The notes under the pieces are model-generated. The model had not been told where the DNA came from, searched no databases, and worked only from the letters and a program-made list of their open reading frames with translations. Shown one piece after another: positions 8,564 to 46,638 of a DNA stretch of 64,000 nt. The stretch comes from Devosia sp. 66-14 (GTDB lineage: Bacteria; Pseudomonadota; Alphaproteobacteria; Rhizobiales; Devosiaceae). A program made the position numbers and the translations under genes. The number at the start of each line of letters is the position of its first letter. Within the stretch, counting starts at the first letter, position 1. The stretch lies in contig NZ_MKVB01000006.1 of the NCBI RefSeq assembly GCF_001899085.1, forward strand, positions 1,073,492-1,137,491, in the 5' to 3' direction.

Positions 8564-8649
8564 GGGCACCTCCTCCCTCGCGGCGCCGTCGGGGCACCGA
8601 TGCAGCAGAGAGCGCCCGACCGGATTCGGGGCCGGCCGGGCGCCAGGAC

Positions 8650-30936: not shown

Positions 30937-30938
30937 CC

Positions 30939-32639
30939 ATGGACAAGCCGGTGATCCTTGCCGTGGATGACGAGCCTTCGGTTCTCGCCGCGGTGGCGCG
31001 TGACCTCAGGCGCCACTACGCAGCCGCATACGACGTGGAGCGCGCCGCTTCGGGAGCCGAGGCGCTGGAGGTGCTCAAGGACCTCAAGCTCGCCGGGCGC
31101 ATCGTGGCGCTGTTCGTGGTGGATCAGCGGATGCCGGAAATGAACGGCGTGACGTTTCTGAGCCGCGCGATGGAGCTCTACCCGGAAGCTCGCCGGGTGC
31201 TGCTGACCGCCTATGCCGATACCGACGCGGCGATCCGGGCGATCAACGAGGTGCGGCTCGACCACTACCTGATGAAACCCTGGCACCCGCCCGAGGAGCA
31301 GCTCTATCCGGTGCTCGACGACCTGCTCGACGACTGGCGCGCCAGCTACCAGCCGGTGTTCGAGGGGGTGCGGGTGATCGGGCACCGCTGGCTGGCCGAC
31401 GGCCATCGGGTGCGCGATTTCCTGGCGAGGAACCTGGTGCCCTATCGCTGGCTCGACATCGAGACCGATGCCGAAGCGGAAACGCTGCGCGGGCTGGCAG
31501 GTGCGGCGGCCGAGCCGCTGCCGCTGGTGATCCTCGCCGACGGGACGGCGCTGTCGCGCCCGACGATCGCCGCGCTGGCCGAACGGCTGGGGCTGCACAC
31601 CCGTGCGACGGCCGAGACCTATGACCTGCTGGTCGTCGGCACCGGGCCGGCCGGGCTGGCAGCGGCGGTGTACGGTGCATCGGAGGGTCTGAGGACGCTC
31701 CTGGTCGAGCGCGAGGCGCCCGGGGGACAGGCCGGCACCAGTTCGCGCATCGAGAATTACCTCGGCTTCCCGGTGGGGCTCAGCGGGGCCGACCTGACGC
31801 GGCGCGGCGTGCAGCAGGCGCGGCGGTTCGGCGCCGAGATCCTGACGCCGGTCGAAGCCGTGCGTCTCGAAACGCAGGACGGCTATCACCTCGTAACGCT
31901 GAGCAATGGCAACACGGTCGCCGCACAGGCGCTGCTGATCGCGACCGGCGTCTCGTACCGGCTGCTGGAGGTACCGGGCGCGGAGCGGCTCTCGGGCGCC
32001 GGGCTCTATTATGGTGCGGCGATGACCGAGGCGATGGGCACTGCCGGACAGGATGTGCTCGTGGTGGGTGCCGGCAACTCGGCGGGGCAAGCGGCACTGC
32101 ACCTGGCACGCTATGCCAGGTCGGTCACGGTGCTGGTACGGGGAAAATCGCTTGCCGACAGCATGTCGCAATACCTGATCGAACGGATCGAGGAGACCGA
32201 GAACGTCGCCGTGCAGACCGGCGCCTCGATCAATGCACTGCTCGGCGAGGAAAGCCTCGAGGCGGCGGCGGTGCTCGACAATGCGACCGGTGCGGTGACC
32301 CAGGTGCCGGCGCGGGCGGCCTTCGTGTTCATCGGCGCTTCACCACGCACCGACTGGCTCAAGGGCAAGCTGCAGCTCGACGCCCAAGGCTTCATTCTGT
32401 CGGGACCGGATCTGGTACGCGAGCCCGGCCGCCGGCCAGACGGCTGGACGCTCGAGCGCGAGCCGTTCTGGCTGGAAACCAGCGTGCCCGGGATCTTCGT
32501 GGCCGGCGACGTGCGGCGGCAATCGACCAAGCGGATCGCTTCGGCGGTCGGCGAGGGGGCGATGGCAGTGACCTTCGTGCACCAGCACCTGCGCGGCCCG
32601 GCTCCCGCGCAACGGCCGCCGCCGGCATCAGGTGGCTGA
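30939..32639 (+). CDS. Response-regulator receiver fused to a thioredoxin-reductase-like FAD oxidoreductase
   Basis: REC motifs 'AVDDE', 'VVDQRMP', 'LTAY', 'MKPW'. TrxB motifs 'VVGTGPAGLAAA', 'GGQAGTSSRIENYLGF', 'VVGAGNSAGQ', 'GIFVAGDV'. Confidence 0.9.
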   Translation: MDKPVILAVDDEPSVLAAVARDLRRHYAAAYDVERAASGAEALEVLKDLKLAGRIVALFVVDQRMPEMNGVTFLSRAMELYPEARRVLLTAYADTDAAIRAINEVRLDHYLMKPWHPPEEQLYPVLDDLLDDWRASYQPVFEGVRVIGHRWLADGHRVRDFLARNLVPYRWLDIETDAEAETLRGLAGAAAEPLPLVILADGTALSRPTIAALAERLGLHTRATAETYDLLVVGTGPAGLAAAVYGASEGLRTLLVEREAPGGQAGTSSRIENYLGFPVGLSGADLTRRGVQQARRFGAEILTPVEAVRLETQDGYHLVTLSNGNTVAAQALLIATGVSYRLLEVPGAERLSGAGLYYGAAMTEAMGTAGQDVLVVGAGNSAGQAALHLARYARSVTVLVRGKSLADSMSQYLIERIEETENVAVQTGASINALLGEESLEAAAVLDNATGAVTQVPARAAFVFIGASPRTDWLKGKLQLDAQGFILSGPDLVREPGRRPDGWTLEREPFWLETSVPGIFVAGDVRRQSTKRIASAVGEGAMAVTFVHQHLRGPAPAQRPPPASGG

Positions 32640-32642
32640 GCC

Positions 32643-34088
32643 ATGTCCGCAGTTGCAGCCGACGCTCGGCAGAGCACCGACCTGATCCGCCAGGTGCCGA
32701 TGTTTGCCGAACTGAGCGAGGCCGAAGCGAGCGAGCTCTGGCATGCCGGCCGGCGGGTCGGGCTCAGCCCCGGCGAGGTGTTCATCCGCGAGGGCGAGCA
32801 AGGCGGTACGCTCTACATTATCCTTGCTGGCGCAGTGGAGGTGACCAAGCGGGACGGCGAGCACGAGGTGACGCTGGCAACGCGCGGGCCCGGGGAGTTC
32901 CTCGGCGAGATGTCCCTCCTCGAACAGGCGCCTCGCACCGCATCGGTGCGAGCCACCGAGCCGAGCCAGGTGCTGGCCATCGGCTCGGAAGCATTCCGCC
33001 AGTTGCTGGCACGGCGACCGGAGGCGGCGGCGACGCTGCTGCGCACCGTGACCTCGCGCCTCAGGAGCACCGAGGCCTCGCTGGTGCAGGCCGACAAGCT
33101 GGCGGCGCTTGGAACGTTGGCGGCGGGGCTCGCGCATGAGCTCAACAATCCCGCCGCCGCGATCCAGCGCTCGACCGGATATCTCAGTGAAGCGTTCGAG
33201 GAGTGGCGCCGCCGGACGGTCGAACTCAGCATGCTGGAGATGACACCCGAGGAGCGGCAGGGGCTGGCGGAACTGGAGCGCAGCATCGCCGATTGCCGGG
33301 CAACGCGCTGCTCCGACGCCGAGGCGCGACGGATCGAGTCGCGGCTGAGCCAGCGGCTCGAAGGGCTCGGAATCGCCGATCCCTGGGAAATCGCCCCGGC
33401 GATGGCCGCCTATGGCTGGTCGGTCGAACGGCTGGAGCCGGTACTGGCCAGCTTTGCCGCAGCGCATGTCACCCCGGTGCTGCACTGGCTGGGGCGCGGG
33501 CTGGCGGCGCAGCAGCTGATGGAAGAGATCGAGGTCGCCTCCAAGGCGATCTCCGGCATCGTCAGGTCGGTGAAGGCCTATGCCTATCTCGACCAGGCGC
33601 CGGTGCAGGATGTCGATATCGCCATGAGCCTCGACGACACGCTGATGATCCTCAATCACAAGCTGAAGCACGGGGTAACGGTGACCCGACTGTACGAGCC
33701 GGCTCTGCCCCGGATCGAGGCCTATGCCGGCGAGCTGAACCAGGTGTGGACCAACCTGATCGACAACGCCGTGCAGGCGATGGATGGGACGGGCCGGCTG
33801 GAAGTCGGCGCCAGGCGACTGGGCGATGAGGTCGAGGTACTGATCGCCGACAGCGGGCCGGGCATCCCCGAGGACGTGGGGCGGCGGATCTTCGAGCCGT
33901 TCTTCACCACCAAGGCACAGGGCGTCGGCACCGGCCTCGGCCTTCACATCGCGCACAACATCGTGGTGAACCGGCACCGCGGGCGCATCAGCTTCAGCTC
34001 CCGCCCCGGGCGGACCGAGTTCCGCATCGTGTTGCCATTGCGGCTGGGCCGCCCAGCGACACCGGAGAAGACCCATGGCGATGGGTGA
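32643..34088 (+). CDS. cNMP-binding-domain sensor histidine kinase
   Basis: cNMP '[10 protein letters not shown]...PRTASV'. H-box 'AHELNNP', N-box '[10 protein letters not shown]', G boxes 'DSGPGI' and 'GTGLGL'. Confidence 0.92.
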
Positions 34089-35766: not shown

Positions 35767-35774
35767 CGGGCGCA

Positions 35775-35828
35775 TGGTGGTGATTTGGCCGGTCTGATTG
35801 CAGCCACCTAAAACAAGTCGCTAAAGAG
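35775..35828 (+). promoter_or_regulatory. SAM-II (SAM-alpha) riboswitch
   Basis: GTGGTGATTTG...TTGCAGCCAC.TAAAACAAGTCGCTAAAG matches the SAM-II consensus and lies in the metZ leader. Confidence 0.88.
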
Positions 35829-35884
35829 ACCCGTTGAGCCGGCCGCCAGAACGCGTGCCGGCTTTGTTGTTTTCGAGGCTAGAG

Positions 35885-37096
35885 ATGTCGAAGTCGAAGA
35901 ATCCGCTGAACGACGAGAAAAACCGCTCCCCCGCCACCCAGGTCGTGCATGGCGGCACGCAGCGAAGCCAGTTCAAAGAGACCTCGGAAGCGATCTTCAT
36001 GAACTCGGGCTACTCCTACCCGAGCTCGCAATATGCCGAGGACCTGTTCCTCAACAAGATCAACAAACCGGCCCATAATTACTCGCGCTTCGCCAACCCG
36101 ACGATGGACATGTTCCAGGACCGGATGGCGCTGCTCGAAGGCGCGGAAGCCGCGCGGGCCTTCGCCACCGGCATGTCGGCAGTCACCAACGCAGTGATGA
36201 GCCAGGTGCGGGCCGGCGACCACATCGTGGCGGCGCGCGCGCTATTCGGCGGGTGTCGCTATGTCGTCGAGGACCTGATGCCGCGCTTCGGCGTCAACTC
36301 CACGCTGGTCGACGGGCGCGACCCCGAGAACTTCGCCCGGGCGATGCGAGAGAACACCAAGGTGATCTTCATCGAGACGCCGACCAACCCGACGCTGGAA
36401 CTGGTCGACATCGCGGCCGTGGCGAAGATCGCCAAGGCGCATGGCGCCAAGCTGATCGTCGACAACGTGTTCGCCACCGCGCTGTTCCAGAAGCCGTTGC
36501 AGCTGGGCGCGGACCTCGTCACCTATTCGGCGACCAAGCATATCGACGGCCAGGGCCGGGCACTGGGCGGTATCGTTCTGGGGTCGAAGGAACTGATCGA
36601 GGGTGATGTACACACCCTGTTGCGCCAGACCGGGCCGTCATTGTCGCCGTTCAATGCGTGGGTGCTGCTCAAGGGCATCGAGACGCTGCCGATCCGCGTC
36701 AGGCAGATGACCGAGGGCGCGACTAAGGTGGCCGACTTCCTCGCCGGGCACCCCAAGATCGAGCGCGTCTCCTACCCGTTCCACCCCTCGCACCCGCAAT
36801 ACGAACTGGCCAAGCGGCAGATGAAGAGCGGTTCGACGCTGGTGGCGTTCGAGGTCAAGGGTGGGCGCGAGGCGGCGTTCACGCTGTCGGACTCGCTGGC
36901 GGTGATCCTGATCTCCAACAACCTCGGAGATGCCAAATCGCTGATCACCCATCCGGGCACCACCACCCATGCCCGGTTCACCGAGGAGGTTCGGCTGGAA
37001 TCGGGCATCACCCCGGGCCTGCTGCGGCTTTCGGTGGGGCTCGAGGACGCCGATGACCTGATCAAGGACCTCGAATACGGGCTGAGCCAGGTCTAG
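35885..37096 (+). CDS. metZ: O-succinylhomoserine sulfhydrylase
   Basis: 'ETSEAIFMNSGY', 'YSRFANPT', PLP lysine 'YSATKHIDGQGR', 'SNNLGDAKSLITHP'. SAM-II leader. Confidence 0.93.
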   Translation: MSKSKNPLNDEKNRSPATQVVHGGTQRSQFKETSEAIFMNSGYSYPSSQYAEDLFLNKINKPAHNYSRFANPTMDMFQDRMALLEGAEAARAFATGMSAVTNAVMSQVRAGDHIVAARALFGGCRYVVEDLMPRFGVNSTLVDGRDPENFARAMRENTKVIFIETPTNPTLELVDIAAVAKIAKAHGAKLIVDNVFATALFQKPLQLGADLVTYSATKHIDGQGRALGGIVLGSKELIEGDVHTLLRQTGPSLSPFNAWVLLKGIETLPIRVRQMTEGATKVADFLAGHPKIERVSYPFHPSHPQYELAKRQMKSGSTLVAFEVKGGREAAFTLSDSLAVILISNNLGDAKSLITHPGTTTHARFTEEVRLESGITPGLLRLSVGLEDADDLIKDLEYGLSQV

Positions 37097-37197: not shown

Positions 37198-37779
37198 TCA
37201 TTGCGGCTCGACCGGCGCCTGCCAGAACGGGCCGCGCATCCACTGGTCGCGGAACAGCTCGAAGTTGACGAAGTCGATAATCTCGCCGGTCACCGGGTTC
37301 TGCTTATGGCGATGCCAGGTGCCGACATGGTCGAAGCCCAGACGGCGATAGCTGAAGATCGACGCGGCGTTGCGGGAATCGACCACCCCATAGAAGCGCT
37401 CGACGCCGCAATGGGCAAAGAAGTGGTTCAGCAGGCGGGCTCGCACCTCGACCACAACGTTCCTGCCCCACCAGGTGCGGTCATGCACGGCGACGGTGCC
37501 GAAGGCCGAGCGATAGCCTTGCAGCCGCACCATATGCGCGCCGATGGGCACCTGCTCACCCTTGGGGATGATGGCAAAAGCGAAACGGTTGCGAGTGCGC
37601 GGCAGCGGCCCGCGCAGCAGCCAGTGCCCAAGCGAGCGAGGCTTGGACGTCTGCATCAGGCCGGTGAGAATCTCCGGATCGTGGCGCCAGCTATTGGTGA
37701 CGCGCACGGCCTCGATCAGCCCCATGGGCTTGAGGATGAAGCGTTCGGTTTCAAGCGGACCGACGACCAGCTTGCTCAT
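37198..37779 (-). CDS. RimJ/RimL-type GNAT N-acyltransferase (last gene of the RiPP operon)
   Basis: 'LETERFILKP', 'WWGRNV', 'NAASIFSYRRLGF'. ATGA overlap with the upstream ligase. Confidence 0.8.
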   Translation of the reverse strand: MSKLVVGPLETERFILKPMGLIEAVRVTNSWRHDPEILTGLMQTSKPRSLGHWLLRGPLPRTRNRFAFAIIPKGEQVPIGAHMVRLQGYRSAFGTVAVHDRTWWGRNVVVEVRARLLNHFFAHCGVERFYGVVDSRNAASIFSYRRLGFDHVGTWHRHKQNPVTGEIIDFVNFELFRDQWMRGPFWQAPVEPQ

Positions 37780-39173
37780 TGCCGTTCGACCATGGCGCGG
37801 ACATCGGCGCGCACGATCTTGCCGCGATCATTGCGCGGGATCGCCGCCACCGCGAACAGCCTCGAGGGCACGGCCTCGTCGCGCACACGGGCCCGGCACC
37901 AGGCCTTCAACGCCTCGGGATCGAACGATGCTCCGTCAGCGAGGACGATTGCCGCGGCCACGGCCTCGCCGGCAATGGCATCCGGAATGCCGAAGGCACA
38001 GGCCTCGGCGATCGCCTCATGCCGCTCGAGCAGCATGTCGATCTCCTCGGCCTGGATCTTGATGCCGCCGCGGTTGATCTCGGATTTGCTGCGGCCGACG
38101 AGGATGAGGTTGCCGGCCTGGTCCAGCTCGCCGATGTCGCCGGTGCGGAACCAGCCATCGACGAACGCGGCCTCGTCGAGGTCGGGGCGTTGCCAGTAAC
38201 CCAGCATCATCGAGGGGCTTTGCACCAGCACCTCGCCGCGTCCCGCGGCATCGGCGGCGATGGCGACGTTGCCGCCCCAGAGCCGGCCGACATAGCCGTC
38301 GCGCGCCTCGGCCTCGTCGAGACTGCCGCCGGCGATCCAGTTGGCGGTTTCGGTCATGCCGAACATGTTGAACACCTGGCGCGTGCCGCACCACTCGGCG
38401 ATGGCGCGCCAGTGTTCGATGGAGAGCGGGGCCGAGCCGACATGGACGCGCTCCAGCACCGGGCCGGGACGCGCCGAGACGCGCAGCGCCAGCTTCCAGA
38501 ATGACGGCACCGAACTCATGAAGCTGATGCGGTTGGCCGTCAGATAGCCGGCGAGGCCGGCGAGTTCGCCGAGCGCCGGACTCGGCCACAGGTGTACCCG
38601 TCCACCGGCCAGCAGCGGGGTCAGGACGTTGCCGATCAGCCCATGGCCAAAGAACACCGGCAGCACGCAGAGGCTTTCGCGCAGGGTATGGGGGCCGATC
38701 TCGGCGCTGTTCAAAGCGGCGCGGGCAAGCAGGCTGCGCACCGAATGGACGATGCCCTTGGGCCTCCCGGTGGTGCCGGAGGTCATCAGGATAAGAGCCG
38801 GATCATCGAGGCGCAGCGGCCTCGGCTCCCCCTGCTCCGGAGCGCCGCTGGCCGGCCGCTGCGGGCCGAGCCAGATCGAGGCACCGGTGGCCTGCAGCAC
38901 GTTCTCGCACTCTTCAGACCTGAGGCCGGGATTGACCGCGACAGCGACGAGGCCGACCTCCCAGCAGGCGAAGATGGCAACGAGATAGTCGACAGGATTG
39001 GGCTCGGCCACCACCGCCCGGGCGCCTGGCCTTAGGCCGCGGCCCGTCAGTTCGGCGGCCTTGTCGCCCACCCGCCGGCGGATGCCTTCCGCGCTCAGCG
39101 CCGCGCCGCCCCTCACATCGACCAGGGTCGCGGCTGCAGGAAGCATGGCAGTGAACGAGAGGTTCCGGATCAT
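37776..39173 (-). CDS. AMP-dependent synthetase/ligase (ANL) in the RiPP operon
   Basis: 'ILMTSGTTGRPKG', 'FGMTET', 'WFRTGDIG', 'INRGGIKI', 'PRNDRGK'. ATGA overlaps at both ends. Confidence 0.9.
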   Translation of the reverse strand: MIRNLSFTAMLPAAATLVDVRGGAALSAEGIRRRVGDKAAELTGRGLRPGARAVVAEPNPVDYLVAIFACWEVGLVAVAVNPGLRSEECENVLQATGASIWLGPQRPASGAPEQGEPRPLRLDDPALILMTSGTTGRPKGIVHSVRSLLARAALNSAEIGPHTLRESLCVLPVFFGHGLIGNVLTPLLAGGRVHLWPSPALGELAGLAGYLTANRISFMSSVPSFWKLALRVSARPGPVLERVHVGSAPLSIEHWRAIAEWCGTRQVFNMFGMTETANWIAGGSLDEAEARDGYVGRLWGGNVAIAADAAGRGEVLVQSPSMMLGYWQRPDLDEAAFVDGWFRTGDIGELDQAGNLILVGRSKSEINRGGIKIQAEEIDMLLERHEAIAEACAFGIPDAIAGEAVAAAIVLADGASFDPEALKAWCRARVRDEAVPSRLFAVAAIPRNDRGKIVRADVRAMVERQ

Positions 39174-40144
39174 CCAGCGCCTCGCGGGACGATGCGCTGC
39201 AGGCCACGGAAGGTGTGGCGGCGGACCTTGGAGAAGAACGCCGTGGGGGCGGCGAGCACCGCGGCGCCATCGACCAGCCGGGTTGCAAAGCCGCTGGCAC
39301 TGCCGCCGTCGATACGACCGCCGGCGGCATGGGCGGCGGGAGCGTCGAACAGTTCGGCGATCAATTCGAGGCAGAGGCGCGCCTCGAGCCCGAGGCCCAG
39401 CCGGCGCGCCATCTCCGGCAACAGGGCGACTTCATCGGGCGAGAGGTGGCGCCAGGCCTGCAGCACGTCGACCAGCAGCCGAAGCTGGTGGAACTTGTGA
39501 CCCAGTGCGGCATGGACCACGGCGACGAAGAACTGCGGCAGGCCGGCGCTCGCGTCACCCCGGCCGCTGGCCATGAACTCGGCATAGCCGAAGCTGATGC
39601 GCCGGCGCAGGCCCTGGTAGTGCACCAGGTTGCCATGCACCTCGATCAGCAGTGCATCCATGTCGGGCTGGATCCACTTTTCTTCCTGGTTCTGTTCGGT
39701 GTGGTCGAGCAGCGGTTTCAGGAACAGCCGATAGCCGAGCCCGGTCAGCAGGTCGCCGATCGGGGCGCGGGCCGAGGGCGCCACCATGATGTCGATATCG
39801 GTGAAGGGTCGATCCGACGGTGCCGGATAGATCTGCCGGGCAAAGACCGGGCCCTTGACGATCACCGCCTCGAGGCCGTTCTCGGCGATATGGCGGTCGA
39901 CCTTGGCGGCGATGCCGCGCAGGTGCATCGACAGGCCGACCAGCAGGGTCAGCTCGCCCTGCGCCTCCCGAAGCGCGGCAGTGCTGTGCTGGGGAGCGAG
40001 CTTGCGCGTCACGACGGGCAGCACATTGTGGTCACGCGCCAGCTGCAGCAGTGGGTCGACCAGTTCCGCCGGGACGGTGGCGGCCGGCGCCTCAGGGTCG
40101 GCCAGGGTGCACACCAGCGTGTCGAGCCGGGCGATCATCATCAT
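39170..40144 (-). CDS. Nucleotidyltransferase of the type found in RiPP/lasso clusters (PF14907-like)
   Basis: 'IVKGPVFARQIYP..SDRPFTDIDIMV', 'IEVHGNL', 'HAALGHKF..LRLLVDV'. Confidence 0.8.
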   Translation of the reverse strand: MMMIARLDTLVCTLADPEAPAATVPAELVDPLLQLARDHNVLPVVTRKLAPQHSTAALREAQGELTLLVGLSMHLRGIAAKVDRHIAENGLEAVIVKGPVFARQIYPAPSDRPFTDIDIMVAPSARAPIGDLLTGLGYRLFLKPLLDHTEQNQEEKWIQPDMDALLIEVHGNLVHYQGLRRRISFGYAEFMASGRGDASAGLPQFFVAVVHAALGHKFHQLRLLVDVLQAWRHLSPDEVALLPEMARRLGLGLEARLCLELIAELFDAPAAHAAGGRIDGGSASGFATRLVDGAAVLAAPTAFFSKVRRHTFRGLQRIVPRGAG

Positions 40145-41136
40145 GCAACGATCTTTTCGATGTTGAGCGCCGCCAGCATGACCGGTGTGAGGTCGGTCGG
40201 ATCGGACCCGGCGGACAGCCGATAGGCGGGCACGGCTCGCACCAGGTCACCGAGCCGCCTGAACAGTTCGCGCTCGCCCTTGGGCACACCGACCCTGGTG
40301 GAACGCACGTTGTCGGCGGCGGCGAGGGCAAGCACCTCGGCCTTGCTGGTCGGCTCGCAGCGGCTCGTCGTCTCGCCGCTGCGCTCCAGCACGAGAACCG
40401 CCGCGATCTCGCGCGCGGCGATGCTCTCGACGCTGACCGTGGTCCTCAGCGCCGCGAGGGTCACCGGCCGCTCGTCCTCGGCGCTCCACTCGCCACTCAG
40501 CAGCGGTTTCACCCAGGGCAGCATTTCGGCGGTGCGGCGATGCACCTTGAGGTTTCGCGGCATGCCCCAGGCGGTCGGCCGGTCAGCGCCGACATTGCAG
40601 GCCATGGCATCGTCGGAGCAGAGACCCAGGCCCCCGGCGGCCAGCGCCAGGGTCGAAGTGGTCTTGCCGGCGCCACTGCGGCCGAAGATCAGCGCCACGC
40701 GACCATCAGGCAGGGTCAGCCCGGCGGCGTGGACGAGAAACTGGTTCGCGGCCAGCAGCGCCGCCTGCAAGGCAAGCTGCCCGCAGGTCATGACGATCCG
40801 CTCCTCGGCCCCCGGGGCGACGATGATGGTCGCCTCGCGCGCCGTATCGGACAGGGTGAGCGAAATGACGCCCGGAAACGCCAGGACGCGTTCCTGCGGT
40901 GCCTGCCAGAAGCAGGCCTCGCCCTCGTCGAGGATCGGCCCCTGATACAATGGGTCGGTGCCCTGCGGCATCGCCAGCGGCTCGCCCGAGGTGATGGTGA
41001 GTCCGAAGGCCAGCGGAGCGGTCGGCAGGGGGCGCGAGCGGCCGGCGAAGATACGGCCGAAGAAATCCACCAGCACCGGCTGTATGGCGGTGACCCGCAG
41101 CGAGGCGCCCTGCAGGTCGAAGAACTTCTGGATCAA
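40141..41136 (-). CDS. HPr-kinase-like P-loop kinase (RiPP Ser kinase type)
   Basis: 'VHAAGL...ALIFGRSGAGKTT...LCSDD', the HprK-like His, P-loop and DD signature. Confidence 0.82.
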   Translation of the reverse strand: MIQKFFDLQGASLRVTAIQPVLVDFFGRIFAGRSRPLPTAPLAFGLTITSGEPLAMPQGTDPLYQGPILDEGEACFWQAPQERVLAFPGVISLTLSDTAREATIIVAPGAEERIVMTCGQLALQAALLAANQFLVHAAGLTLPDGRVALIFGRSGAGKTTSTLALAAGGLGLCSDDAMACNVGADRPTAWGMPRNLKVHRRTAEMLPWVKPLLSGEWSAEDERPVTLAALRTTVSVESIAAREIAAVLVLERSGETTSRCEPTSKAEVLALAAADNVRSTRVGVPKGERELFRRLGDLVRAVPAYRLSAGSDPTDLTPVMLAALNIEKIVA

Positions 41137-41606
41137 ACTCTGGCTCCGTGCGGGTCCGCCGGCCCGACCGCCGGGGCGGCGTGCACATGAATCTGCACCT
41201 GGCCGGGGATGCGGGCATTGATGACTTCAACGCCGTCCAGCGTCACCCAGCAATGCGCTGAAAGGCTCGGCCGGCCGATGGATTTGGGGTCGACGGAAAA
41301 ATGCAGGCGTGGCTCGTAGCCGCAACGACGCAAGGCGGCGAAGCCGACCAATCCGCTGCGCAGGCACCGATTGTTGCGCATCAGGATGGGCCAGCGCGCC
41401 GCACGCCGTACCGAGCGGGCGATGTAGGAGACCGGAAAGCGCGGCCAGCTATGGGGCGGCACCGCCGAGACGTCGCTCAGTATCTGGGAGAACTCGCGGC
41501 CTGCGATACGTGCCGGAAGCGTTCGCGCCGCGATCCACAGCCGTAAACGAAATGCCAGCCGATCGAGGGACCCGGCGCCGGCCTGTTCTGCCGGCTCACG
41601 CGGCAT
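41133..41606 (-). CDS. Lasso-type B2 leader peptidase (transglutaminase-like)
   Basis: Catalytic 'RCLRSG' Cys and 'SAHCWV' His. ATG 41606 overlaps the PqqD 3' end. Confidence 0.85.
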   Translation of the reverse strand: MPREPAEQAGAGSLDRLAFRLRLWIAARTLPARIAGREFSQILSDVSAVPPHSWPRFPVSYIARSVRRAARWPILMRNNRCLRSGLVGFAALRRCGYEPRLHFSVDPKSIGRPSLSAHCWVTLDGVEVINARIPGQVQIHVHAAPAVGPADPHGARV

Positions 41607-41865
41607 GCACGATGATGCCTTCAGCAACCAGCCCGGCGATCAGTTCCGGCAGGTCGTCGGCCAGCGTGGCGGCGTCGACCTCGAACTCATCGGCCATGCG
41701 ATGCGCCACGGCTTCGACGTTGCGGACGCCGTCGAGATGCTTGAGGAAACAGAGCGAGGTGTCGTTGCACGAATAGAGCTGCCCGCTGCCAAGCAGGAGG
41801 ATGACAGCGCCCTCCCCCACCGGTTCGAACGAAACTTCGTCGCCGAGGCGGTACACTGCATCCAT
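41596..41865 (-). CDS. PqqD-family RiPP recognition element (B1/RRE)
   Basis: 89 aa. 'GEGAVILLLGSGQLYSCNDTS...LDG...VAHRMADEFEV...DDL..LIAGLVAEGII'. Confidence 0.88.
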   Translation of the reverse strand: MDAVYRLGDEVSFEPVGEGAVILLLGSGQLYSCNDTSLCFLKHLDGVRNVEAVAHRMADEFEVDAATLADDLPELIAGLVAEGIIVHAA

Positions 41866-41896
41866 TCACGCACCAGAAATTCAAGACAAACAGGGT

Positions 41897-41918
41897 CGGG
41901 GCCGGAGAGCCGGCCCCG
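41897..41918 (-). terminator. GC hairpin between the last precursor and the RRE gene (attenuator or mRNA stabiliser)
   Basis: 9-bp stem CGGGGCCGG-agag-CCGGCCCCG starting 5 nt after the precursor stop, followed by 'ctgtttgtctt' on the minus strand. Confidence 0.6.
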
Positions 41919-41923
41919 CGCAA

Positions 41924-42013
41924 TCACACCGGCGGAGTTTTGCTCGTCGCAGCAGAAATCGCTGCAAGCTTCTGCTCTTTGACGATGGTCGGCTTGGCGT
42001 AGACCTTCTTCAC
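41924..42013 (-). CDS. RiPP precursor A6, MKKVYAKPTIVKEQKLAAISA-ATSKTPPV (29 aa)
   Basis: Manually translated. GTG start 7 nt after AGGAGG, TGA at 41924-41926, YxKPxI leader. Confidence 0.88.
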   Translation of the reverse strand: MKKVYAKPTIVKEQKLAAISAATSKTPPV

Positions 42014-42149
42014 GTTCAGTCCTCCTGCAATCTGCCCCAATGCAGATTTCTGGCAGCCTATCACGATCCGGCCGCGAACTCACACCCGAACGAAAGAGCC
42101 CCGCCCCCGCGTACCGATGCGGTCGTTACGCGACGAGACGGCGCCGCAA

Positions 42150-42233
42150 TCAGAACGGCTTGCTGCTCACAGCGGTGATCGCCACGAGTTTCTGGTCCTT
42201 GACCAGCGTCGGCTTGCTGTAGTGCTTCTTCAT
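42150..42233 (-). CDS. RiPP precursor A5, MKKHYSKPTLVKDQKLVAITA-VSSKPF (27 aa)
   Basis: Manually translated. Purine-rich RBS (GGGGATGAAG) and conserved leader. Confidence 0.88.
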   Translation of the reverse strand: MKKHYSKPTLVKDQKLVAITAVSSKPF

Positions 42234-42297
42234 CTTCATCCCCAAATCGCCCAGATCGGACCGACTCGAGCCGGTCCAATTCGCCACATCCACCAGA

Positions 42298-42393
42298 CTA
42301 TTGTTGGGGCATTTTGCTGGAAACCGGCACAGCCGTAATGGCAGCCAGTTTCTGCTCTTTGACCAGAGCCGGCTTCGTGTACGTCTTCTTCAT
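42298..42393 (-). CDS. RiPP precursor A4, MKKTYTKPALVKEQKLAAITA-VPVSSKMPQQ (31 aa)
   Basis: Manually translated. GGGGGA RBS, TAG at 42298-42300. Confidence 0.88.
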   Translation of the reverse strand: MKKTYTKPALVKEQKLAAITAVPVSSKMPQQ

Positions 42394-42513
42394 GGTTATC
42401 CCCCAACCTACACGCTCACGGTGCAGATCTTCAGACTAGCAGAAGTTGCGCCCGTCCGGACAATCACTTCTTTGCTGTCATCGACAAGGGATCGGCGACC
42501 CCGAGTCTTATCG

Positions 42514-42600
42514 TCAGCCAGCCGGTTTGCTGACAACAGCAGTGATAACCGCGAGCTTCTGGTTCTTGACCAGCGTCGGTTTCGTGTAGGTCTTCTTCAT
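42514..42600 (-). CDS. RiPP precursor A3, MKKTYTKPTLVKNQKLAVITA-VVSKPAG (28 aa)
   Basis: Manually translated. GAGAGGGA RBS and conserved leader. Confidence 0.88.
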   Translation of the reverse strand: MKKTYTKPTLVKNQKLAVITAVVSKPAG

Positions 42601-42650
42601 CTGCATCCCTCTCAAGACGGCCTATCGGGTCCGGATGACACCGGACGCGA

Positions 42651-42746
42651 TCACGGAGGCGGAGCTTTGCTCGAAATCGGAGCTGCTGTGATGGAGGTCA
42701 GCTTCTGCTCTTTGACAAGAGCCGGCTTGGAATAGGTCTTTTTCAT
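42651..42746 (-). CDS. RiPP precursor A2, MKKTYSKPALVKEQKLTSITA-APISSKAPPP (31 aa)
   Basis: Manually translated. AGGGA RBS and conserved leader. Confidence 0.88.
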   Translation of the reverse strand: MKKTYSKPALVKEQKLTSITAAPISSKAPPP

Positions 42747-42874
42747 CATCATTCCCTATGCGCGCCCCCAAGGCGCGACGACGGCAGAGTAACAGAACCG
42801 ATGCAGATCGGAAAACCCGGTTGTCTTGCTGTCACCAGGAAAAGGAGACCGGAGCGATGCCCCGGCCCCTCAGG

Positions 42875-42964
42875 TCACGTCACCTTGCTGGAAATCGGCT
42901 CGGCGGTGATCGAGGTGAGCTTCTGCTCTTTGACAAGCACAGGCTTGGTATAGGTCTTTTTCAT
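42875..42964 (-). CDS. RiPP precursor A1, MKKTYTKPVLVKEQKLTSITA-EPISSKVT (29 aa)
   Basis: Manually translated. GGGA RBS and conserved leader. Confidence 0.88.
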   Translation of the reverse strand: MKKTYTKPVLVKEQKLTSITAEPISSKVT

Positions 42965-43046
42965 AGTATGTCCCAAAAATTCCCCTGCACAACCAGCAGG
43001 GTAGCAGGGAAACTACCTGAGTCGGCCGACCCCGCAACCGCTCCGT

Positions 43047-43271
43047 CTAGATTTTGCGGTACAGCATGACCCGCTGGGCGAGTCCCCTGCCCTCGAAGCG
43101 CGTCACCTCGGCCACCAGGTTGACCGGACGCCCATCGAGCGCCAGCGGCGCGTCGGTCAGCCGGCGCGCCGCCGCAATCGGTTCGGGCGCTTCGACCGTC
43201 TGCGGCAGGCTGACGCTGGGGGGCTTGGCTCGATAGTCGTAGAGCGTGACGGTGTATCGGGGCATCGGCAT
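43047..43271 (-). CDS. Small hypothetical protein (about 72-76 aa) upstream of the precursor array
   Basis: 3' part of track ORF 43047..43790, 'MPMPRYTVTLYDYR...VMLYRKI', with high GC3 codon usage. Start could be 43265, 43271 or 43277. Confidence 0.5.
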   Translation of the reverse strand: MPMPRYTVTLYDYRAKPPSVSLPQTVEAPEPIAAARRLTDAPLALDGRPVNLVAEVTRFEGRGLAQRVMLYRKI

Positions 43272-43457
43272 TCTCATCGGCTGCTGTGCGGTCGCGACGA
43301 GCGACCATAGCCTCCGGCAGCTGACAGGTTGCTGAACCCCGCGCGTCCTCACGCACCTTGCGAAGAATTCACCCACCTTACCAAGCCCTAATGCGACTTC
43401 TTGATCTCGGCGCTCTACTTTAGGTGCGATGGGTATTTGGGCTTTGCAGGTGCGGCG

Positions 43458-44681
43458 ATGAAGCGGTGGTTGAAGTGGATTGTCCTGGTGGTCCTGCTCG
43501 GCGCAGCCGGCGCGGGCTGGCTGGTGTTCAGCGCCCCCGCCAAGGATGAGGTGCCGCGCACGACGCCGGTGGCCCGCGGCAATGTCGAAGAAACCGTCCT
43601 CGCCTCGGGCGTGATCCAGGCCAGTTCGCTGGTCAGCGTCGGCGCCGAGGTCTCGGGCCGGATCAAGACGCTCAATGTCGCCCTGGGCGACGACGTGAAG
43701 GCCGGCGACGTGATCGCCGAGATCGACTCGCTGAACCAGGAGAACGCGGTGAAGGCGGCGCAGGCGGCGCTCGCCAACACCGAGGCGCAAAAGACCATCC
43801 AGACCGCCAATCTGGGCCAGGCGAGAACCGCGCTGGACCGGGCGGAAAAGCTCAGCCCGCAGAAACTGATCTCAGATGCCGACCTGCAGACGGCCCAGTT
43901 GGCGGTGCAGACCGCCGAAGGACAGCTGCAGGCGATCGACGCGCAGATCCAGCAGGGGCAGATCAACGTCGAGGCGGCGCAGCTCAATCTCGATCGCACC
44001 AAGATTGTCGCGCCGTCGGACGGCACGGTCGTGGCGGTGTCGGTGGAAGTCGGCCAGTCGGTCAATGCCAACAATTCCTCGCCGACCATCGTCAAGCTCG
44101 CCAACCTCGACAAGATGGTGGTGAAGGCGGAAATCTCGGAGGCCGACGTGCCGCGGGTGGAGCCCGGGCAGCAGGTCTATTTCACCATCCTCGGCGATCC
44201 CGACACGCGCATCAATGCGACCCTGCGGGCGGTCGAGCCGGCGCCGGATTCGATCGCCTCGGACGACACGTCGTCGAGCTCGTCGGCCACCGCGGTCTAT
44301 TACAACGGCCTGTTCGACGTCGATAATCCCGGCCACAAGCTGCGCATCTCGATGACCGCACAGGTGACGATCGTGCTCAAGTCGGTCGACGACGTGCTGA
44401 CCGTGCCCGCCTCGGTGCTGGGCCGGAAGGGTCGCGACGGCAACTACCTCGTGCAGGTCTGGGACCAGCAGAAGGGCGCGGTCGAGCCCAGGAAGGTCAG
44501 TGTCGGGCTCAACAACAACGTGACGGCCGAGGTGCTGGACGGGCTCAGCGAAGGCGACCTGGTGGTCAACGGCACCGCCGCCGCGCCGGCAGCCCGTACC
44601 GGCAACGCGCAAGGCGGCGGCAACCGGAACATCCTCACCGGCGGCGGACCGCCGGTCGGAGGGTTCGGGCGCGGAGGCTGA
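43458..44681 (+). CDS. macA: MacA-family periplasmic adaptor subunit
   Basis: N-terminal TM, 'VSVGAEVSGRIKTL', 'TKIVAPSDGTV', 'KAEISEADV', 'LRISMTAQV'. Confidence 0.9.
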   Translation: MKRWLKWIVLVVLLGAAGAGWLVFSAPAKDEVPRTTPVARGNVEETVLASGVIQASSLVSVGAEVSGRIKTLNVALGDDVKAGDVIAEIDSLNQENAVKAAQAALANTEAQKTIQTANLGQARTALDRAEKLSPQKLISDADLQTAQLAVQTAEGQLQAIDAQIQQGQINVEAAQLNLDRTKIVAPSDGTVVAVSVEVGQSVNANNSSPTIVKLANLDKMVVKAEISEADVPRVEPGQQVYFTILGDPDTRINATLRAVEPAPDSIASDDTSSSSSATAVYYNGLFDVDNPGHKLRISMTAQVTIVLKSVDDVLTVPASVLGRKGRDGNYLVQVWDQQKGAVEPRKVSVGLNNNVTAEVLDGLSEGDLVVNGTAAAPAARTGNAQGGGNRNILTGGGPPVGGFGRGG

Positions 44682-44685
44682 GGCC

Positions 44686-46638
44686 ATGACCGAGCCGCTG
44701 ATTTCCATCCGGAAGCTCCGCCGCGAGTATCCGATCGGCACCGAGAGCATCACGGTGCTCAAGGATATCGACCTCGACATCGAGGCCGGCGAGATGATCG
44801 CCATCATCGGACAATCCGGCTCCGGCAAGTCGACATTGATGAACGTGCTCGGCTGCCTCGATAATGGCTGGACCGGCGAATACCGGCTCGCCGGACGCGA
44901 CATCGCGCGGCTCAAGCCCGATGAGCTGGCCGAGCTCCGGCGCGAGCATTTCGGTTTCATCTTCCAGCGCTACCAATTGCTGGCCGATCTCGATGCGCTG
45001 GAAAATGTCGAAGTGCCGGCGATCTATGCCGGTGCGCGCAAGCAGGCGCGGCGCGAGCGGGCGCACAAGCTGCTGGAGCGGCTGGGTCTGGGCGAGCGGC
45101 TGACGCACCGGCCGAACGCCCTGTCCGGCGGCCAGCAGCAACGTGTCAGCGTGGCGCGCGCGCTGATCAATGGCGGCGAGGTGATCCTCGCGGACGAACC
45201 CACCGGGGCGCTCGATTCACGGAGCGGCAAGGAGCTCATGGCGTTGCTCAAGGAGCTCAATGCCGAAGGGCATACCATCATCATCGTCACGCACGACCCC
45301 ACGGTGGCGGCACAGGCCGACCGGGTGGTCGAGCTGAGCGACGGCGTGATCGTCGCCGACCGCCGCAAGGATGGAGTCGATGCCCCGGCCGGCCGGTCCG
45401 GCGACGCCATCAAGCGGATTCCGCGCTGGCGCGAAGCGATCGACCGGGTCGGCGAAGCCTTCCAGATGGCGCTCAGGGCGCTGTCGAGCCATCGCCTGCG
45501 CACCTTTCTCACCATGCTCGGCATCATCATCGGCATCGCCTCGGTGGTGTCAGTGGTGGCGCTGGGGCAAGGCAGCCAGCAGGCGGTGCTCGACCGGATC
45601 AGTTCGATCGGCACCAACACCATCAACATCCTGCCCGGCACCAATGCCGCAGACCGGCGACGCGACGCGATCCGCACGCTGGTGCCGGCCGATGCGGCGG
45701 CGATCGCCGCGGAAAGCTACGCCGACAGCGTGACCCCGCAGGTCTCCAGCAACGGCCAGGCGCGCTATCGCAACGTCAGCGCCGCCGCGCAGGTGCAGGG
45801 CGTCGGGCCCGACTATTTCCGGGTCAACAATCGCAGCTTCGTCGAGGGTGCGGCATTCGATACGGCCAGCACCAGCGCGCTGGCGCAGGTGGCGGTGATC
45901 GACACCACGGCGCGCGACACGCTGTTCACCAACGGCGAAGATGCGGTCGGGCAAGTGGTGCTGGTCGGCAATGTGCCGCTCAGGATCATCGGCGTGGTCG
46001 CGGCGAGCACCAACAATTTCGGGCCGCAATCGAACTCGATCAGCATCTGGATGCCCTACACCACCGCGATGTCGCGGATCCTGGGGCAGAGCTGGCTGTC
46101 GACGATCACGGTCCGTGTCGCCGACACAGCCGACGTCACCGAGGCGCAGGCGGAGATCCAGGCGCTGCTCGAGCAGCGGCACGGCACGGTGGATTTCAGC
46201 CTGCAGAACACCGACACCATTCGCGAGACCATCCAGTCGACCTCGCAGACGCTGACGCTGCTGATCTCGGCCATTGCCGTGATCTCGCTGATCGTGGGCG
46301 GCATCGGGGTGATGAACATCATGCTGGTGTCGGTGCGCGAGCGGACCCGCGAGATCGGCGTGCGCATGGCGGTCGGGGCCCGGCAGGGTGATATCCTGCA
46401 GCAGTTCCTGATCGAGGCGGTGCTGGTCTGCCTGATCGGCGGCACGGTCGGTGTGCTGTTGTCGCTGGGCATCGGCTTCGGCGTCGAGCGGCTGATGAGC
46501 GGGCTCACCTTCATCTACTCGCCGGCGACGATCATCGCGGCGTTCGTCTCGTCGAGCCTGATCGGCGTGCTGTTCGGCTTCATGCCGGCGCGTTCGGCGG
46601 CGCGCCTCGACCCGGTGGTGGCGCTGGCCAGCGAGTGA
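44686..46638 (+). CDS. macB: MacB-family ABC exporter (ATPase + permease fusion)
   Basis: 'GQSGSGKST', 'LSGGQQQRV', 'ILADEPTGALD', 'LTMLGIIIGIASVV', 'GGIGVMNIMLVSVRERTREIG'. Confidence 0.95.
   Translation: MTEPLISIRKLRREYPIGTESITVLKDIDLDIEAGEMIAIIGQSGSGKSTLMNVLGCLDNGWTGEYRLAGRDIARLKPDELAELRREHFGFIFQRYQLLADLDALENVEVPAIYAGARKQARRERAHKLLERLGLGERLTHRPNALSGGQQQRVSVARALINGGEVILADEPTGALDSRSGKELMALLKELNAEGHTIIIVTHDPTVAAQADRVVELSDGVIVADRRKDGVDAPAGRSGDAIKRIPRWREAIDRVGEAFQMALRALSSHRLRTFLTMLGIIIGIASVVSVVALGQGSQQAVLDRISSIGTNTINILPGTNAADRRRDAIRTLVPADAAAIAAESYADSVTPQVSSNGQARYRNVSAAAQVQGVGPDYFRVNNRSFVEGAAFDTASTSALAQVAVIDTTARDTLFTNGEDAVGQVVLVGNVPLRIIGVVAASTNNFGPQSNSISIWMPYTTAMSRILGQSWLSTITVRVADTADVTEAQAEIQALLEQRHGTVDFSLQNTDTIRETIQSTSQTLTLLISAIAVISLIVGGIGVMNIMLVSVRERTREIGVRMAVGARQGDILQQFLIEAVLVCLIGGTVGVLLSLGIGFGVERLMSGLTFIYSPATIIAAFVSSSLIGVLFGFMPARSAARLDPVVALASE

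What the first reader, a model, noticed from the sequence alone, without database searches (positions are those of the whole stretch)
41924..42964. Invariant Ser-Lys in every core (SSK x4, TSK, VSK) matches the tailoring enzyme set
Seen: S-K is the only motif common to all six cores, usually preceded by S/T and flanked by Pro and aliphatic residues. Inference: Ser is the kinase/NTase substrate and Lys is the GNAT/ligase substrate. Adjacent phospho-Ser and acyl-Lys, or a Ser-P-to-Lys link, would be unusual RiPP chemistry.
Basis: partly seen in the sequence, partly recalled or inferred. Interest (0 to 1): 0.72.

Follow-up and report, generated by a model that had tools for sequence, protein, structure and literature searches.

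The report
Short phospho-peptide precursors without lasso cyclase
Six tandem mini-genes in a Devosia-like bacterium encode 6-10-residue peptides made by lasso-peptide machinery that lacks the ring-closing enzyme. The serine of their shared Ser-Lys motif is conserved across bacterial phyla and is probably phosphorylated, whereas the lysine is a local feature and not the required target of the acyltransferase.

Summary
Six small ORFs on the minus strand (41924-42964) share a leader, MKKxYxKPxLVKxQKLxxITA. Their cores are ATSKTPPV, VSSKPF, VPVSSKMPQQ, VVSKPAG, APISSKAPPP and EPISSKVT, and all contain S-K.

An operon follows them: PqqD-type RRE, lasso B2 protease, HprK-like kinase, NTP_transf_5 nucleotidyltransferase, acyl-CoA-ligase-like enzyme, and RimJ/RimL-type GNAT. 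There is no lasso cyclase, and the cores could not form a lasso.

I collected 111 distinct homologous cores from Alpha-, Beta- and Deltaproteobacteria, Verrucomicrobia and Planctomycetes.
- Ser is present in 108 of them, mostly at core position 3-5.
- The next residue is K (36), G (28) or P (19).
- S-K is common only in the Devosia clade (32/42).
- In other lineages with the same ligase and GNAT, 25 of 43 cores have no lysine at all (for example Oricola indica and Notoacmeibacter).

So Ser as the kinase/NTase site is supported by conservation and by precedent.

The closest known system is the linear polyphosphorylated peptides (LPP) of Bacillota, where core Ser3 is polyphosphorylated. This locus differs in four ways: a B2 rather than an SpI peptidase, very short cores, an added acylation pair, and a proteobacterial host. 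I rate it a new variant of a known kind. The product is unknown.

The parts
42875..42964 (-). Precursor 6 (first in transcription order): MKKTYTKPVLVKEQKLTSITA|EPISSKVT. S-K codons at 42884-42889.
   Evidence: HMM E 1e-16
42651..42746 (-). Precursor 5: MKKTYSKPALVKEQKLTSITA|APISSKAPPP (alternative ATGs up to 42752). S-K codons at 42666-42671.
42514..42600 (-). Precursor 4: MKKTYTKPTLVKNQKLAVITA|VVSKPAG (alternative ATG at 42606). S-K codons at 42526-42531.
42298..42393 (-). Precursor 3: MKKTYTKPALVKEQKLAAITA|VPVSSKMPQQ. S-K codons at 42313-42318.
42150..42233 (-). Precursor 2: MKKHYSKPTLVKDQKLVAITA|VSSKPF (alternative ATG at 42239). S-K codons at 42159-42164.
41924..42013 (-). Precursor 1 (GTG start, GGAGGA RBS): MKKVYAKPTIVKEQKLAAISA|ATSKTPPV. 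S-K codons at 41939-41944.
41596..41865 (-). PqqD-family RiPP recognition element (lasso B1-like). It presumably binds the YxxPxL leader motif.
   Evidence: Pfam PF05402 E 5e-12; NCBIfam lasso_PqqD hit below cutoff
41133..41627 (-). Lasso B2-type transglutaminase-like cysteine protease (leader peptidase). Cys88 and His125 are conserved in 39 homologues.
   Evidence: PF13471; NF033537 lasso_biosyn_B2 at 47.8 bits, above the cutoff of 33
40141..41136 (-). HprK-like P-loop kinase (GRSGAGKTTS, conserved DD/H/R/E). Predicted Ser kinase for the core.
   Evidence: Weak TIGR04352/TIGR04355 hits; PF07475 on two homologues; AF2 model pLDDT 91, Foldseek top hits PEPCK
39170..40144 (-). NTP_transf_5 'uncharacterised nucleotidyltransferase' with conserved G98...D116-x-D118. 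Same named kind of enzyme as PsmN/LppN.
   Evidence: PF14907 E 1e-23; PMC6993621
37776..39173 (-). AMP-binding (ANL) acyl-CoA-synthetase-like ligase. Nearest solved relatives are oxalate-CoA ligase, FadD13, MenE and malonyl-CoA synthetase.
37198..37779 (-). GNAT of the RimJ/RimL (Acetyltransf_3) type. Last gene of the operon.
   Evidence: PF13302; JGI name 'RimJ/RimL family' for homologues; AF2 pLDDT 92.5 and Foldseek
43401..46638 (+). Divergently transcribed MacA-like adaptor (43401-44681) and MacB-type ABC transporter (44686-46638). A possible exporter, but membership in the cluster is uncertain.
   Evidence: Pfam; syntenic only within Devosia, where the whole neighbourhood is syntenic
42845..42869 (-). 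GC-rich hairpin followed by a T-run just after precursor 6. A similar hairpin (GGGGCCGG-n4-CCGGCCCC, about 41895-41920) follows precursor 1. These could be attenuators or stabilisers.
   Evidence: sequence

Best explanation
The six ORFs are precursor genes of a linear RiPP pathway derived from lasso machinery but lacking the cyclase.

Proposed steps (all inferred; nothing here is shown by experiment on this locus):
1. The PqqD-type RRE binds the YxxPxL leader motif.
2. The HprK-like kinase (poly)phosphorylates the one conserved core Ser, which is the Ser of S-K at core position 3 or 5.
3. The NTP_transf_5 enzyme adds a further group to that phosphate, either a hexose or a nucleotidyl group.
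4. The B2 cysteine protease cuts after I-T-A, with Thr/Ser at position -2, and releases a 6-10-residue peptide.
5. The acyl-CoA-ligase-like enzyme and the RimJ/RimL-type GNAT are an accessory module found in only part of the family. They most likely N-acylate an amine that every substrate has. The alpha-amine exposed by leader cleavage is my favoured acceptor, rather than Lys.

The Lys next to the Ser is a feature of the Devosia lineage. Elsewhere that position is Gly or Pro. Its role is unknown; it could be charge, target binding, or a second acyl acceptor.
For: - Gene set and order.
- No cyclase: there is no Asn_synthase/PP-loop protein in the window or in L001-L026. A positive control (L051, beside a distant kinase homologue) was detected.
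- Cores are 6-10 aa and four of the six have no acidic residue.
- The RRE, B2, kinase and NTase genes occur together in L001-L026 (precursors found in all but L014), from Alpha-, Beta- and Deltaproteobacteria, Verrucomicrobia and Planctomycetes.
- Leader spacing is fixed, so cores can be aligned.
- Ser is in 108/111 distinct cores and at position 3-5 in 85. The next residue is K 36, G 28, P 19.
- Ligase and GNAT occur in at least 17 lineages. At least 8 of these have Lys-free cores, and in at least 5 no detected core has Lys.
- Catalytic motifs are conserved: B2 Cys/His, the kinase P-loop and the NTase DxD.
- The kinase model has a PEPCK-like fold, which by my own knowledge is the HprK/P superfamily.
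- Precedents: LppK polyphosphorylates core Ser3 before cleavage (PMC13381572); PsmK and PsmN act on pseudomycoidin.
- Other lineages carry different N-acylating accessories, namely Formyl_trans_N-like genes in L009 and L015.
- The precursor array is present in metatranscriptomes at higher word depth than most of the enzyme genes.
Against: - No chemistry was observed. The phosphosite, the NTase product and the acyl acceptor are all inferred.
- The leader/core boundary rests on the lasso Thr(-2) rule, and the -2 residue is V, A or S in some homologues.
- Lys is enriched in clusters that have the ligase and GNAT (about 66% of cores, against 19% without). It is strongly retained near the Ser in the Devosia clade (38/42, including SGK, SGGK and SAK variants). 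Lys acylation in this lineage therefore cannot be ruled out.
- A GNAT that acetylates lasso peptides is a close structural neighbour.
- LppN was inactive in the LPP study, so the NTase chemistry is unknown even in the model system.
- The counts are not phylogenetically independent.
Confidence: 0.6

Rival explanations
1. One reading: the kinase/NTase modify Ser, and the ligase/GNAT acylate the epsilon-amine of the adjacent Lys. This would give neighbouring phospho-Ser and acyl-Lys.
For: - There is exactly one Lys per core, always right after the Ser.
- Lys is retained in 38/42 Devosia-clade cores, even when displaced by 1-4 residues.
- Lys is more frequent in clusters with the ligase and GNAT than without.
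- GNATs that acylate Lys in RiPPs exist. 9iy3, a lasso-peptide acetyltransferase, is structural neighbour rank 4. Selidamide and albusnodin are cited from my own knowledge.
Against: - Orthologous ligase and GNAT (GNAT about 58% identical, same operon order) serve Lys-free cores in Oricola, Notoacmeibacter, Hyphomicrobiaceae and other lineages.
- Ten of 42 Devosia-clade cores lack S-K and four lack Lys.
- The enrichment is confounded by phylogeny.
- The GNAT belongs to the RimJ/RimL type, whose named members acetylate N-terminal alpha-amines (own knowledge).
Confidence: 0.22
2. Peptide-nucleotide conjugate. The NTase converts phospho-Ser plus NTP into an NDP-linked Ser-peptide, a short Trojan-horse-like molecule. 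The RimL-type GNAT would then serve self-protection, as MccE does in microcin C, or would modify the appended group rather than the peptide.
For: - The NTase has the classic G...DxD nucleotidyltransferase motif.
- The authors of the pseudomycoidin work could not exclude that PsmN is a true nucleotidyltransferase and that the hexose came from a host enzyme.
- The cores are very short, like the microcin C heptapeptide (own knowledge).
- GNAT presence is independent of Lys.
Against: - No direct evidence.
- The mass observed with PsmN was hexose, not a nucleotide.
- A ligase paired with a GNAT suggests supply of a specific acyl-CoA for biosynthesis rather than for immunity.
- No uptake or processing genes were identified.
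Confidence: 0.1
3. Ser-phosphate-to-Lys phosphoramidate, or another Ser-Lys crosslink, forming a small ring.
For: Only the adjacency of Ser and Lys in the six cores.
Against: - Lys is absent from most homologous cores made by the same core enzymes.
- No enzyme in the operon has a precedent for such a link.
- Adjacent residues give a strained ring.
Confidence: 0.03
4. Canonical lasso peptides whose cyclase is encoded elsewhere.
For: B1 and B2 are lasso-type. B2 scores above the NCBIfam lasso_biosyn_B2 cutoff.
Against: - The cores are 6-10 aa. Four of six lack any Asp/Glu, so there is no acceptor for a 7-9-residue macrolactam.
- There is no Asn_synthase-like gene in 64 kb here, or within +-10 kb in 26 related loci.
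Confidence: 0.02

Closest known systems
Linear polyphosphorylated peptides (LPP) of Bacillota (Popov et al., Nat Commun 2026, PMC13381572)
   Same: - Discrete PqqD-type RRE, HprK-like kinase and an uncharacterised NTP transferase.
- No macrolactam cyclase, so the product is linear.
- The leader carries a YxxPx[L/V] RRE-binding motif.
- The modified or conserved Ser lies a few residues after the cleavage site (Ser3 in LppA; core position 3-5 here).
   Different: - The leader peptidase here is a lasso B2 cysteine protease, not the SipW-like signal peptidase LppS that defines and was used to find LPP clusters.
- Cores are 6-10 aa, against 45 aa for LppA (whole LPP precursors are 35-200 aa).
- There are up to six precursors per cluster.
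- There is no MsbA-type exporter in the operon.
- An acyl-CoA-ligase-like enzyme and a GNAT are added.
- The hosts are Proteobacteria, Verrucomicrobia and Planctomycetes, whereas the paper states that LPP is restricted to Bacillota.
Phosphorylated lasso peptides: paeninodin and pseudomycoidin (PadeK/PsmK kinase, PsmN NTP transferase)
   Same: - B1, B2, HprK-like kinase and NTP transferase gene set.
- The kinase acts on a single Ser of the precursor.
- The NTase-dependent decoration sits on the phosphate.
   Different: - Those are true lasso peptides with a cyclase and a C-terminal Ser target.
- Here there is no cyclase, the Ser is internal and near the N-terminus of the core, and the cores are too short and mostly lack the acidic residue needed for a lasso.
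GNAT-acylated RiPPs: albusnodin-type lasso Lys acetylation (structure 9iy3); selidamide Lys/Orn lipidation and goadvionin N-terminal acylation (the last two from my own knowledge)
   Same: A GNAT encoded in a RiPP operon. The predicted structure resembles 9iy3 (TM 0.72). An acyl-activating enzyme is encoded next to it.
   Different: - Sequence identity is only about 21%.
- The GNAT is of the RimJ/RimL type.
- The acceptor is unknown, and Lys is not conserved among substrates of orthologous GNATs.

Membership tests
Lasso peptide | Discrete or fused RRE (B1) and transglutaminase-like cysteine protease (B2) | tested here: met
   PF05402 and PF13471. NF033537 lasso_biosyn_B2 scores 47.8 bits against a cutoff of 33. 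Cys88 and His125 are conserved.
Lasso peptide | Asn-synthetase-like macrolactam synthetase (C protein) in the cluster | tested here: not met
   All six operon genes are assigned to other families. A PP-loop motif scan of the window and of L001-L117 found no cyclase near these clusters. The one hit in the window is an alpha-L-fucosidase. L051 served as a positive control.
Lasso peptide | Core with Asp/Glu at position 7-9 and a tail long enough to thread | tested here: not met
   Cores are 6-10 aa. Four of six have no acidic residue, and the only Glu is at position 1 of pre6.
LPP (linear polyphosphorylated peptides) | RRE, HprK-like kinase and NTP transferase without a cyclase | tested here: met
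   Definition of the family taken from PMC13381572.
LPP (linear polyphosphorylated peptides) | SpI (SipW-like) serine leader peptidase LppS | tested here: not met
   The operon has a B2 cysteine protease instead, and none of the six operon genes is a signal-peptidase family member. The rest of the window was not scanned for one.
LPP (linear polyphosphorylated peptides) | Leader motif YxxPxVLxHQxIxFETxxS and an MsbA-like exporter | tested here: not met
   The leader here is YxKPxLVKxQKLxxITA. Only the YxxPx[LV] part and a Ser shortly after the cut site are shared. The neighbouring transporter is MacAB-type and is conserved only within Devosia.
LPP (linear polyphosphorylated peptides) | Polyphosphorylation of one Ser near the N-terminus of the core | not testable with these tools
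   Only the conservation of the Ser could be shown. Mass spectrometry is required.
HprK/P-like P-loop kinases | Walker A loop and PEPCK-like/HprK C-terminal-domain fold | tested here: met
   GRSGAGKTT is invariant. The AF2 model has pLDDT 91, and the Foldseek top hits are PEP carboxykinases at E 3e-9. That PEPCK and HprK/P share a superfamily is my own knowledge. TIGR04352 and TIGR04355 score far below their cutoffs (26 against 200 bits), so the protein is not a member of those equivalogs.
Lys-acylated RiPPs (selidamide- or albusnodin-like) | Conserved Lys/Orn acceptor in the substrates of the GNAT | tested here: not met
   Outside the Devosia clade, 25 of 43 distinct cores from clusters with orthologous ligase and GNAT have no Lys (loci).

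The most novel reading that the evidence does not exclude
The products are a previously unseen type of very short (6-10 aa) linear RiPP. An internal Ser would carry a phosphodiester- or pyrophosphate-linked nucleotide or sugar, and the N-terminus (and/or Lys) would be capped with an acyl group supplied by a dedicated ligase. That would make them N-acyl phospho-nucleotidyl or phospho-glycosyl mini-peptides. They would be made by lasso B1/B2 machinery that has lost the cyclase, and would occur in several Gram-negative phyla.
Probability: 0.2. Interest if true: 0.85.

Novelty: new variant of a known kind. Interest (0 to 1): 0.6.

Why it matters
Phosphorylation is rare in RiPPs, and the only described linear phospho-RiPP family (LPP, 2026) is reported as restricted to Bacillota and defined by a signal-peptidase-like leader protease. 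This locus suggests that the same RRE, HprK-like kinase and NTP-transferase logic also exists with the lasso B2 protease, without a cyclase, in at least 26 loci from Alpha-, Beta- and Deltaproteobacteria, Verrucomicrobia and Planctomycetes. A profile search of 1.84 billion representative proteins found 212 kinase relatives at E<=1e-30.

In this version the cores are only 6-10 residues long and the accessory enzymes vary by lineage: ligase with GNAT, formyltransferase-like, Mur-ligase-like, radical SAM.

The comparative data give a precise, testable prediction: one Ser per core is the anchor of the modification. They also remove a misleading one, that Lys is the acyl acceptor. Cultured strains carry the cluster (Devosia insulae DS-56, Devosia sp. 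Root413D1, Oricola indica JL-62), so the chemistry can be tested directly, including the still unknown reaction of the PsmN/LppN-type NTP transferase.

Tried and rejected
- PDB sequence searches found nothing for the GNAT or the NTase, and only P-loop-only matches for the kinase.
- Foldseek on the GNAT model returned generic GNATs (RimJ/RimL, SpeG, Rv0802c, a lasso acetyltransferase). This does not discriminate an alpha-amine from an epsilon-amine acceptor.
- The ligase's nearest solved relatives span oxalate, malonate, succinylbenzoate and fatty-acid CoA ligases, so the acyl group cannot be named.
- Flanking genes were compared between lineages to find a conserved exporter or further enzymes. 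None is conserved, and MacAB is syntenic only within Devosia.
- The sigma-70 promoter scan found nothing in 41500-43500.
- The Ser codon is AGC in all six paralogues, so codon usage cannot separate selection from recent duplication.
- The Zhu et al. 2016 paeninodin paper is not held.
- Literature searches for a proteobacterial B2-dependent linear phospho-RiPP, or for PF14907, found no description.
- I considered looking for kinase or GNAT residues that co-vary with K, G or P at the +1 position. I did not run it, because the K-containing clusters appear to be one clade and any signal would be confounded by phylogeny.
- The lasso reading and the 'spurious ORFs' reading were both rejected.
Full report
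**What is there**

The interval 41924-42964 holds six small minus-strand ORFs. All share the leader M-K-K-x-Y-x-K-P-x-L-V-K-x-Q-K-L-x-x-I-T/S-A, with mean pairwise identity 0.77. Each has a purine-rich RBS-like stretch upstream.

After I-T-A come short, dissimilar tails: ATSKTPPV, VSSKPF, VPVSSKMPQQ, VVSKPAG, APISSKAPPP and EPISSKVT. S-K is in all six, as SSK x4, TSK and VSK. Each core has exactly one Lys.

The DNA repeat unit that defines the six paralogues runs from the start codon to the S-K codons and stops there. If the cores were independent, S-K in all six would have probability 6e-5. They are paralogues and the Ser codon is always AGC, so the window alone cannot prove selection. The observation itself is confirmed.

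**Context**

Directly downstream on the same strand lie six genes:
- a PqqD-family RRE (41596-41865);
- a lasso B2 protease (41133-41627), which scores above the NCBIfam cutoff;
- an HprK-like P-loop kinase (40141-41136);
- an NTP_transf_5 nucleotidyltransferase (39170-40144);
- an AMP-binding acyl-CoA-synthetase-like ligase (37776-39173);
- a RimJ/RimL-type GNAT (37198-37779).

The operon is bounded on one side by metZ, which has its own SAM riboswitch and lies on the other strand. On the other side is a divergent MacAB transporter.

There is no Asn-synthetase-like cyclase in the window. The cores are too short for a lasso, and four of the six have no acidic residue.

The kinase model (pLDDT 91) has a PEPCK-like fold. 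By my own knowledge this is the superfamily that contains HprK/P.

Conserved residues fit active enzymes:
- B2 Cys88 and His125;
- kinase S154-G-x-G-K-T-T160;
- NTase D116-x-D118, which I take to correspond to the D134/D136 pair that is essential in PsmN (PMC6993621).

Metatranscriptome contigs cover the precursor array at word depth 7-45, against 0-6 over most of the enzyme genes. This is only a rough measure, because contig depth is a poor proxy for expression and DNA may be present.

The source is a Devosia-like organism from bioreactor or wastewater metagenomes. Contig VFQP010000031.1 matches the window's GNAT at 100% and carries the same cluster (five of six precursors identical), and Devosia kinases are 87-90% identical.

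**Relatives**

I ran two collection scans: a kinase-profile scan of one genome per species and a GNAT-profile scan of metagenome contigs. Both were followed by six-frame HMM and regex searches.

The RRE, B2, kinase and NTase genes occur together in L001-L026, and homologous precursors were found in all of these except L014. The hosts include Devosia, Oricola, Notoacmeibacter, Hyphomicrobiaceae, Ancylobacter, Prosthecomicrobium, Burkholderiaceae, Oxalobacter, Desulfuromonadales, Syntrophobacteraceae, Verrucomicrobia and Planctomycetes.

A profile search of 1.84 billion representative proteins found 212 kinase relatives at E<=1e-30.

The ligase and GNAT pair occurs in only part of the family: L001-L012 and many metagenome loci. 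Other lineages carry other accessories:
- formyltransferase-like genes (L009, L015);
- a Mur-ligase-like gene (L015);
- a GT41-TPR protein (L009);
- radical SAM enzymes (L022, L026);
- an ABC exporter and a DUF6065-PqqD fusion (L019).

Flanking genes are not conserved between lineages.

More distant kinase homologues sit beside a true Asn_synthase (L051) or a large PP-loop-motif protein that I did not check by Pfam (L052). These are ordinary phosphorylated-lasso clusters.

**The motif in relatives**

Leader spacing is fixed: the core starts 17 residues after the Tyr of YxxP. Cores can therefore be compared. Among 111 distinct cores:
- 108 contain Ser and all contain Ser or Thr;
- the key Ser is at core position 3-5 in 85 cores;
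- the residue before it is usually V, I or T;
- the residue after it is K (36), G (28) or P (19).

| Group | Distinct cores | With S-K | With any Lys |
|---|---|---|---|
| Devosia clade | 42 | 32 | 38 |
| Other lineages with ligase and GNAT | 43 | 6 | 18 |
| Lineages without ligase and GNAT | 26 | 1 | 5 |

Examples with the complete six-enzyme operon and Lys-free cores:
- Oricola indica: APSTGV, RNSDPA, GGSARPT, QVSSGNG;
- Notoacmeibacter: AAVSGPV;
- Hyphomicrobiaceae: QYYISPPYPDPDS and relatives;
- L072: APVPVSSGGAA, ASPASVTPED, GGAASGSAQNPPPP.

Partial contigs that show only part of the enzyme set also have Lys-free cores: L081, L092, L095, L100 and L101.

Loci that mix S-K with S-G cores (L009, L015, L059, L061) show that one enzyme set accepts both.

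**Interpretation**

The Ser is the family-wide invariant. The closest studied enzymes phosphorylate exactly one Ser:
- LppK polyphosphorylates core Ser3 before cleavage, and S3A abolishes it (PMC13381572).
- PadeK and PsmK act on a C-terminal Ser, and PsmN adds hexose to the phosphate.

I therefore infer that the Ser of S-K is the kinase site and that the NTase acts on its phosphate.

The Lys is a lineage feature. It is clearly retained within Devosia, including displaced SGK, SGGK and SAK variants. It is absent from many substrates of orthologous ligase and GNAT enzymes, so it cannot be their obligatory acceptor.

The only amine common to all substrates is the alpha-amine exposed by B2 cleavage, or an amine on the group attached to the phosphate. 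The GNAT is of the RimJ/RimL type, whose named members acetylate N-terminal alpha-amines (own knowledge). That is a lead, not a test. The structural neighbours also include a lasso-peptide acetyltransferase. I give alpha-amine acylation about 0.35-0.4 and Lys acylation in this lineage about 0.2.

**Comparison with known systems and novelty**

The nearest described system is the LPP family. Shared features are the RRE, the HprK-like kinase, the NTP transferase, the absence of a cyclase, the YxxP leader motif and a Ser soon after the cut site.

This locus fails LPP's defining features. It has no SpI-type peptidase LppS, no MsbA-like exporter, a different leader consensus, and hosts outside Bacillota. 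It adds very short cores, multiple precursors and an acylation module.

It also fails lasso membership, having no cyclase and cores that cannot form a lasso.

Literature searches found no description of this B2-dependent, cyclase-less, proteobacterial version. The search covers open-access text only.

I rate it a new variant of a known kind. The product and its biological role remain unknown.

Noticed in passing
window 35767-35845 (+): SAM_alpha (SAM-II) riboswitch at 63 bits, directly upstream of an O-succinylhomoserine sulfhydrylase gene (metZ, 35834-37096). It marks the downstream boundary of the RiPP operon.
   Followed up: partly
window 42845-42869 (-) and about 41895-41920 (-): GC-rich hairpins immediately after precursor 6 and after precursor 1, the latter just before the PqqD gene. 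They could be attenuators or stabilisers that set the precursor-to-enzyme ratio. RNA contig depth drops downstream of the array (by about 41500 in X25 and X27, earlier in X26 and X29).
   Followed up: partly
window 27694-34088 (+): A signalling gene block: adenylate/guanylate cyclase-AAA-TPR protein (27694-30936), response-regulator-pyridine-nucleotide-disulphide-oxidoreductase fusion (30939-32639), and a cNMP-binding histidine-kinase-like protein (32643-34088).
   Followed up: no
L019, L021, L029 (Ancylobacter), about 7700-8970: Family members whose cores end in long polyproline runs (for example PAPVIPVSGVPFVPPAPPPPPPPPPPPP...). In L019 they sit next to an ABC exporter and a DUF6065-PqqD fusion protein, which would be a second RRE-bearing enzyme of unknown function.
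   Followed up: partly
L097 1493-1944: Three precursors with cores APACSPGEKC..., in which the conserved Ser is flanked by two Cys. This could be a disulfide or another Cys-based variant of the family. The contig is too short to show the enzymes.
   Followed up: no
L009 8036-9049 and 10261-12621; L015 10757-13200: Betaproteobacterial clusters insert a Formyl_trans_N-like gene, plus a Mur-ligase-like gene in L015, between the kinase and the NTase. L009 also has a GT41 (OGT-like) TPR glycosyltransferase beside the NTase. Tailoring is modular around the conserved Ser.
   Followed up: partly
L071, L074-L080 (Devosia-related metagenome contigs): Paralogues of the GNAT (46-52% identical) occur alone, without RRE, B2, kinase or NTase, mostly next to an ABC-ATPase-like gene. 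The GNAT subfamily is therefore not exclusive to this RiPP pathway.
   Followed up: no
window 41547-42976; runs X25-X29: Metatranscriptomes labelled 'algae metagenome' contain near-identical transcripts of the precursor array. This organism, or a close relative, is therefore active in algal cultures as well as in bioreactors.
   Followed up: partly
kinase homologues P0001-P0052: Many homologues carry a precomputed Pfam family, PF27840, that did not appear in the local Pfam scan, so its name is unknown to me. It may already define this kinase group in newer Pfam releases.
   Followed up: no
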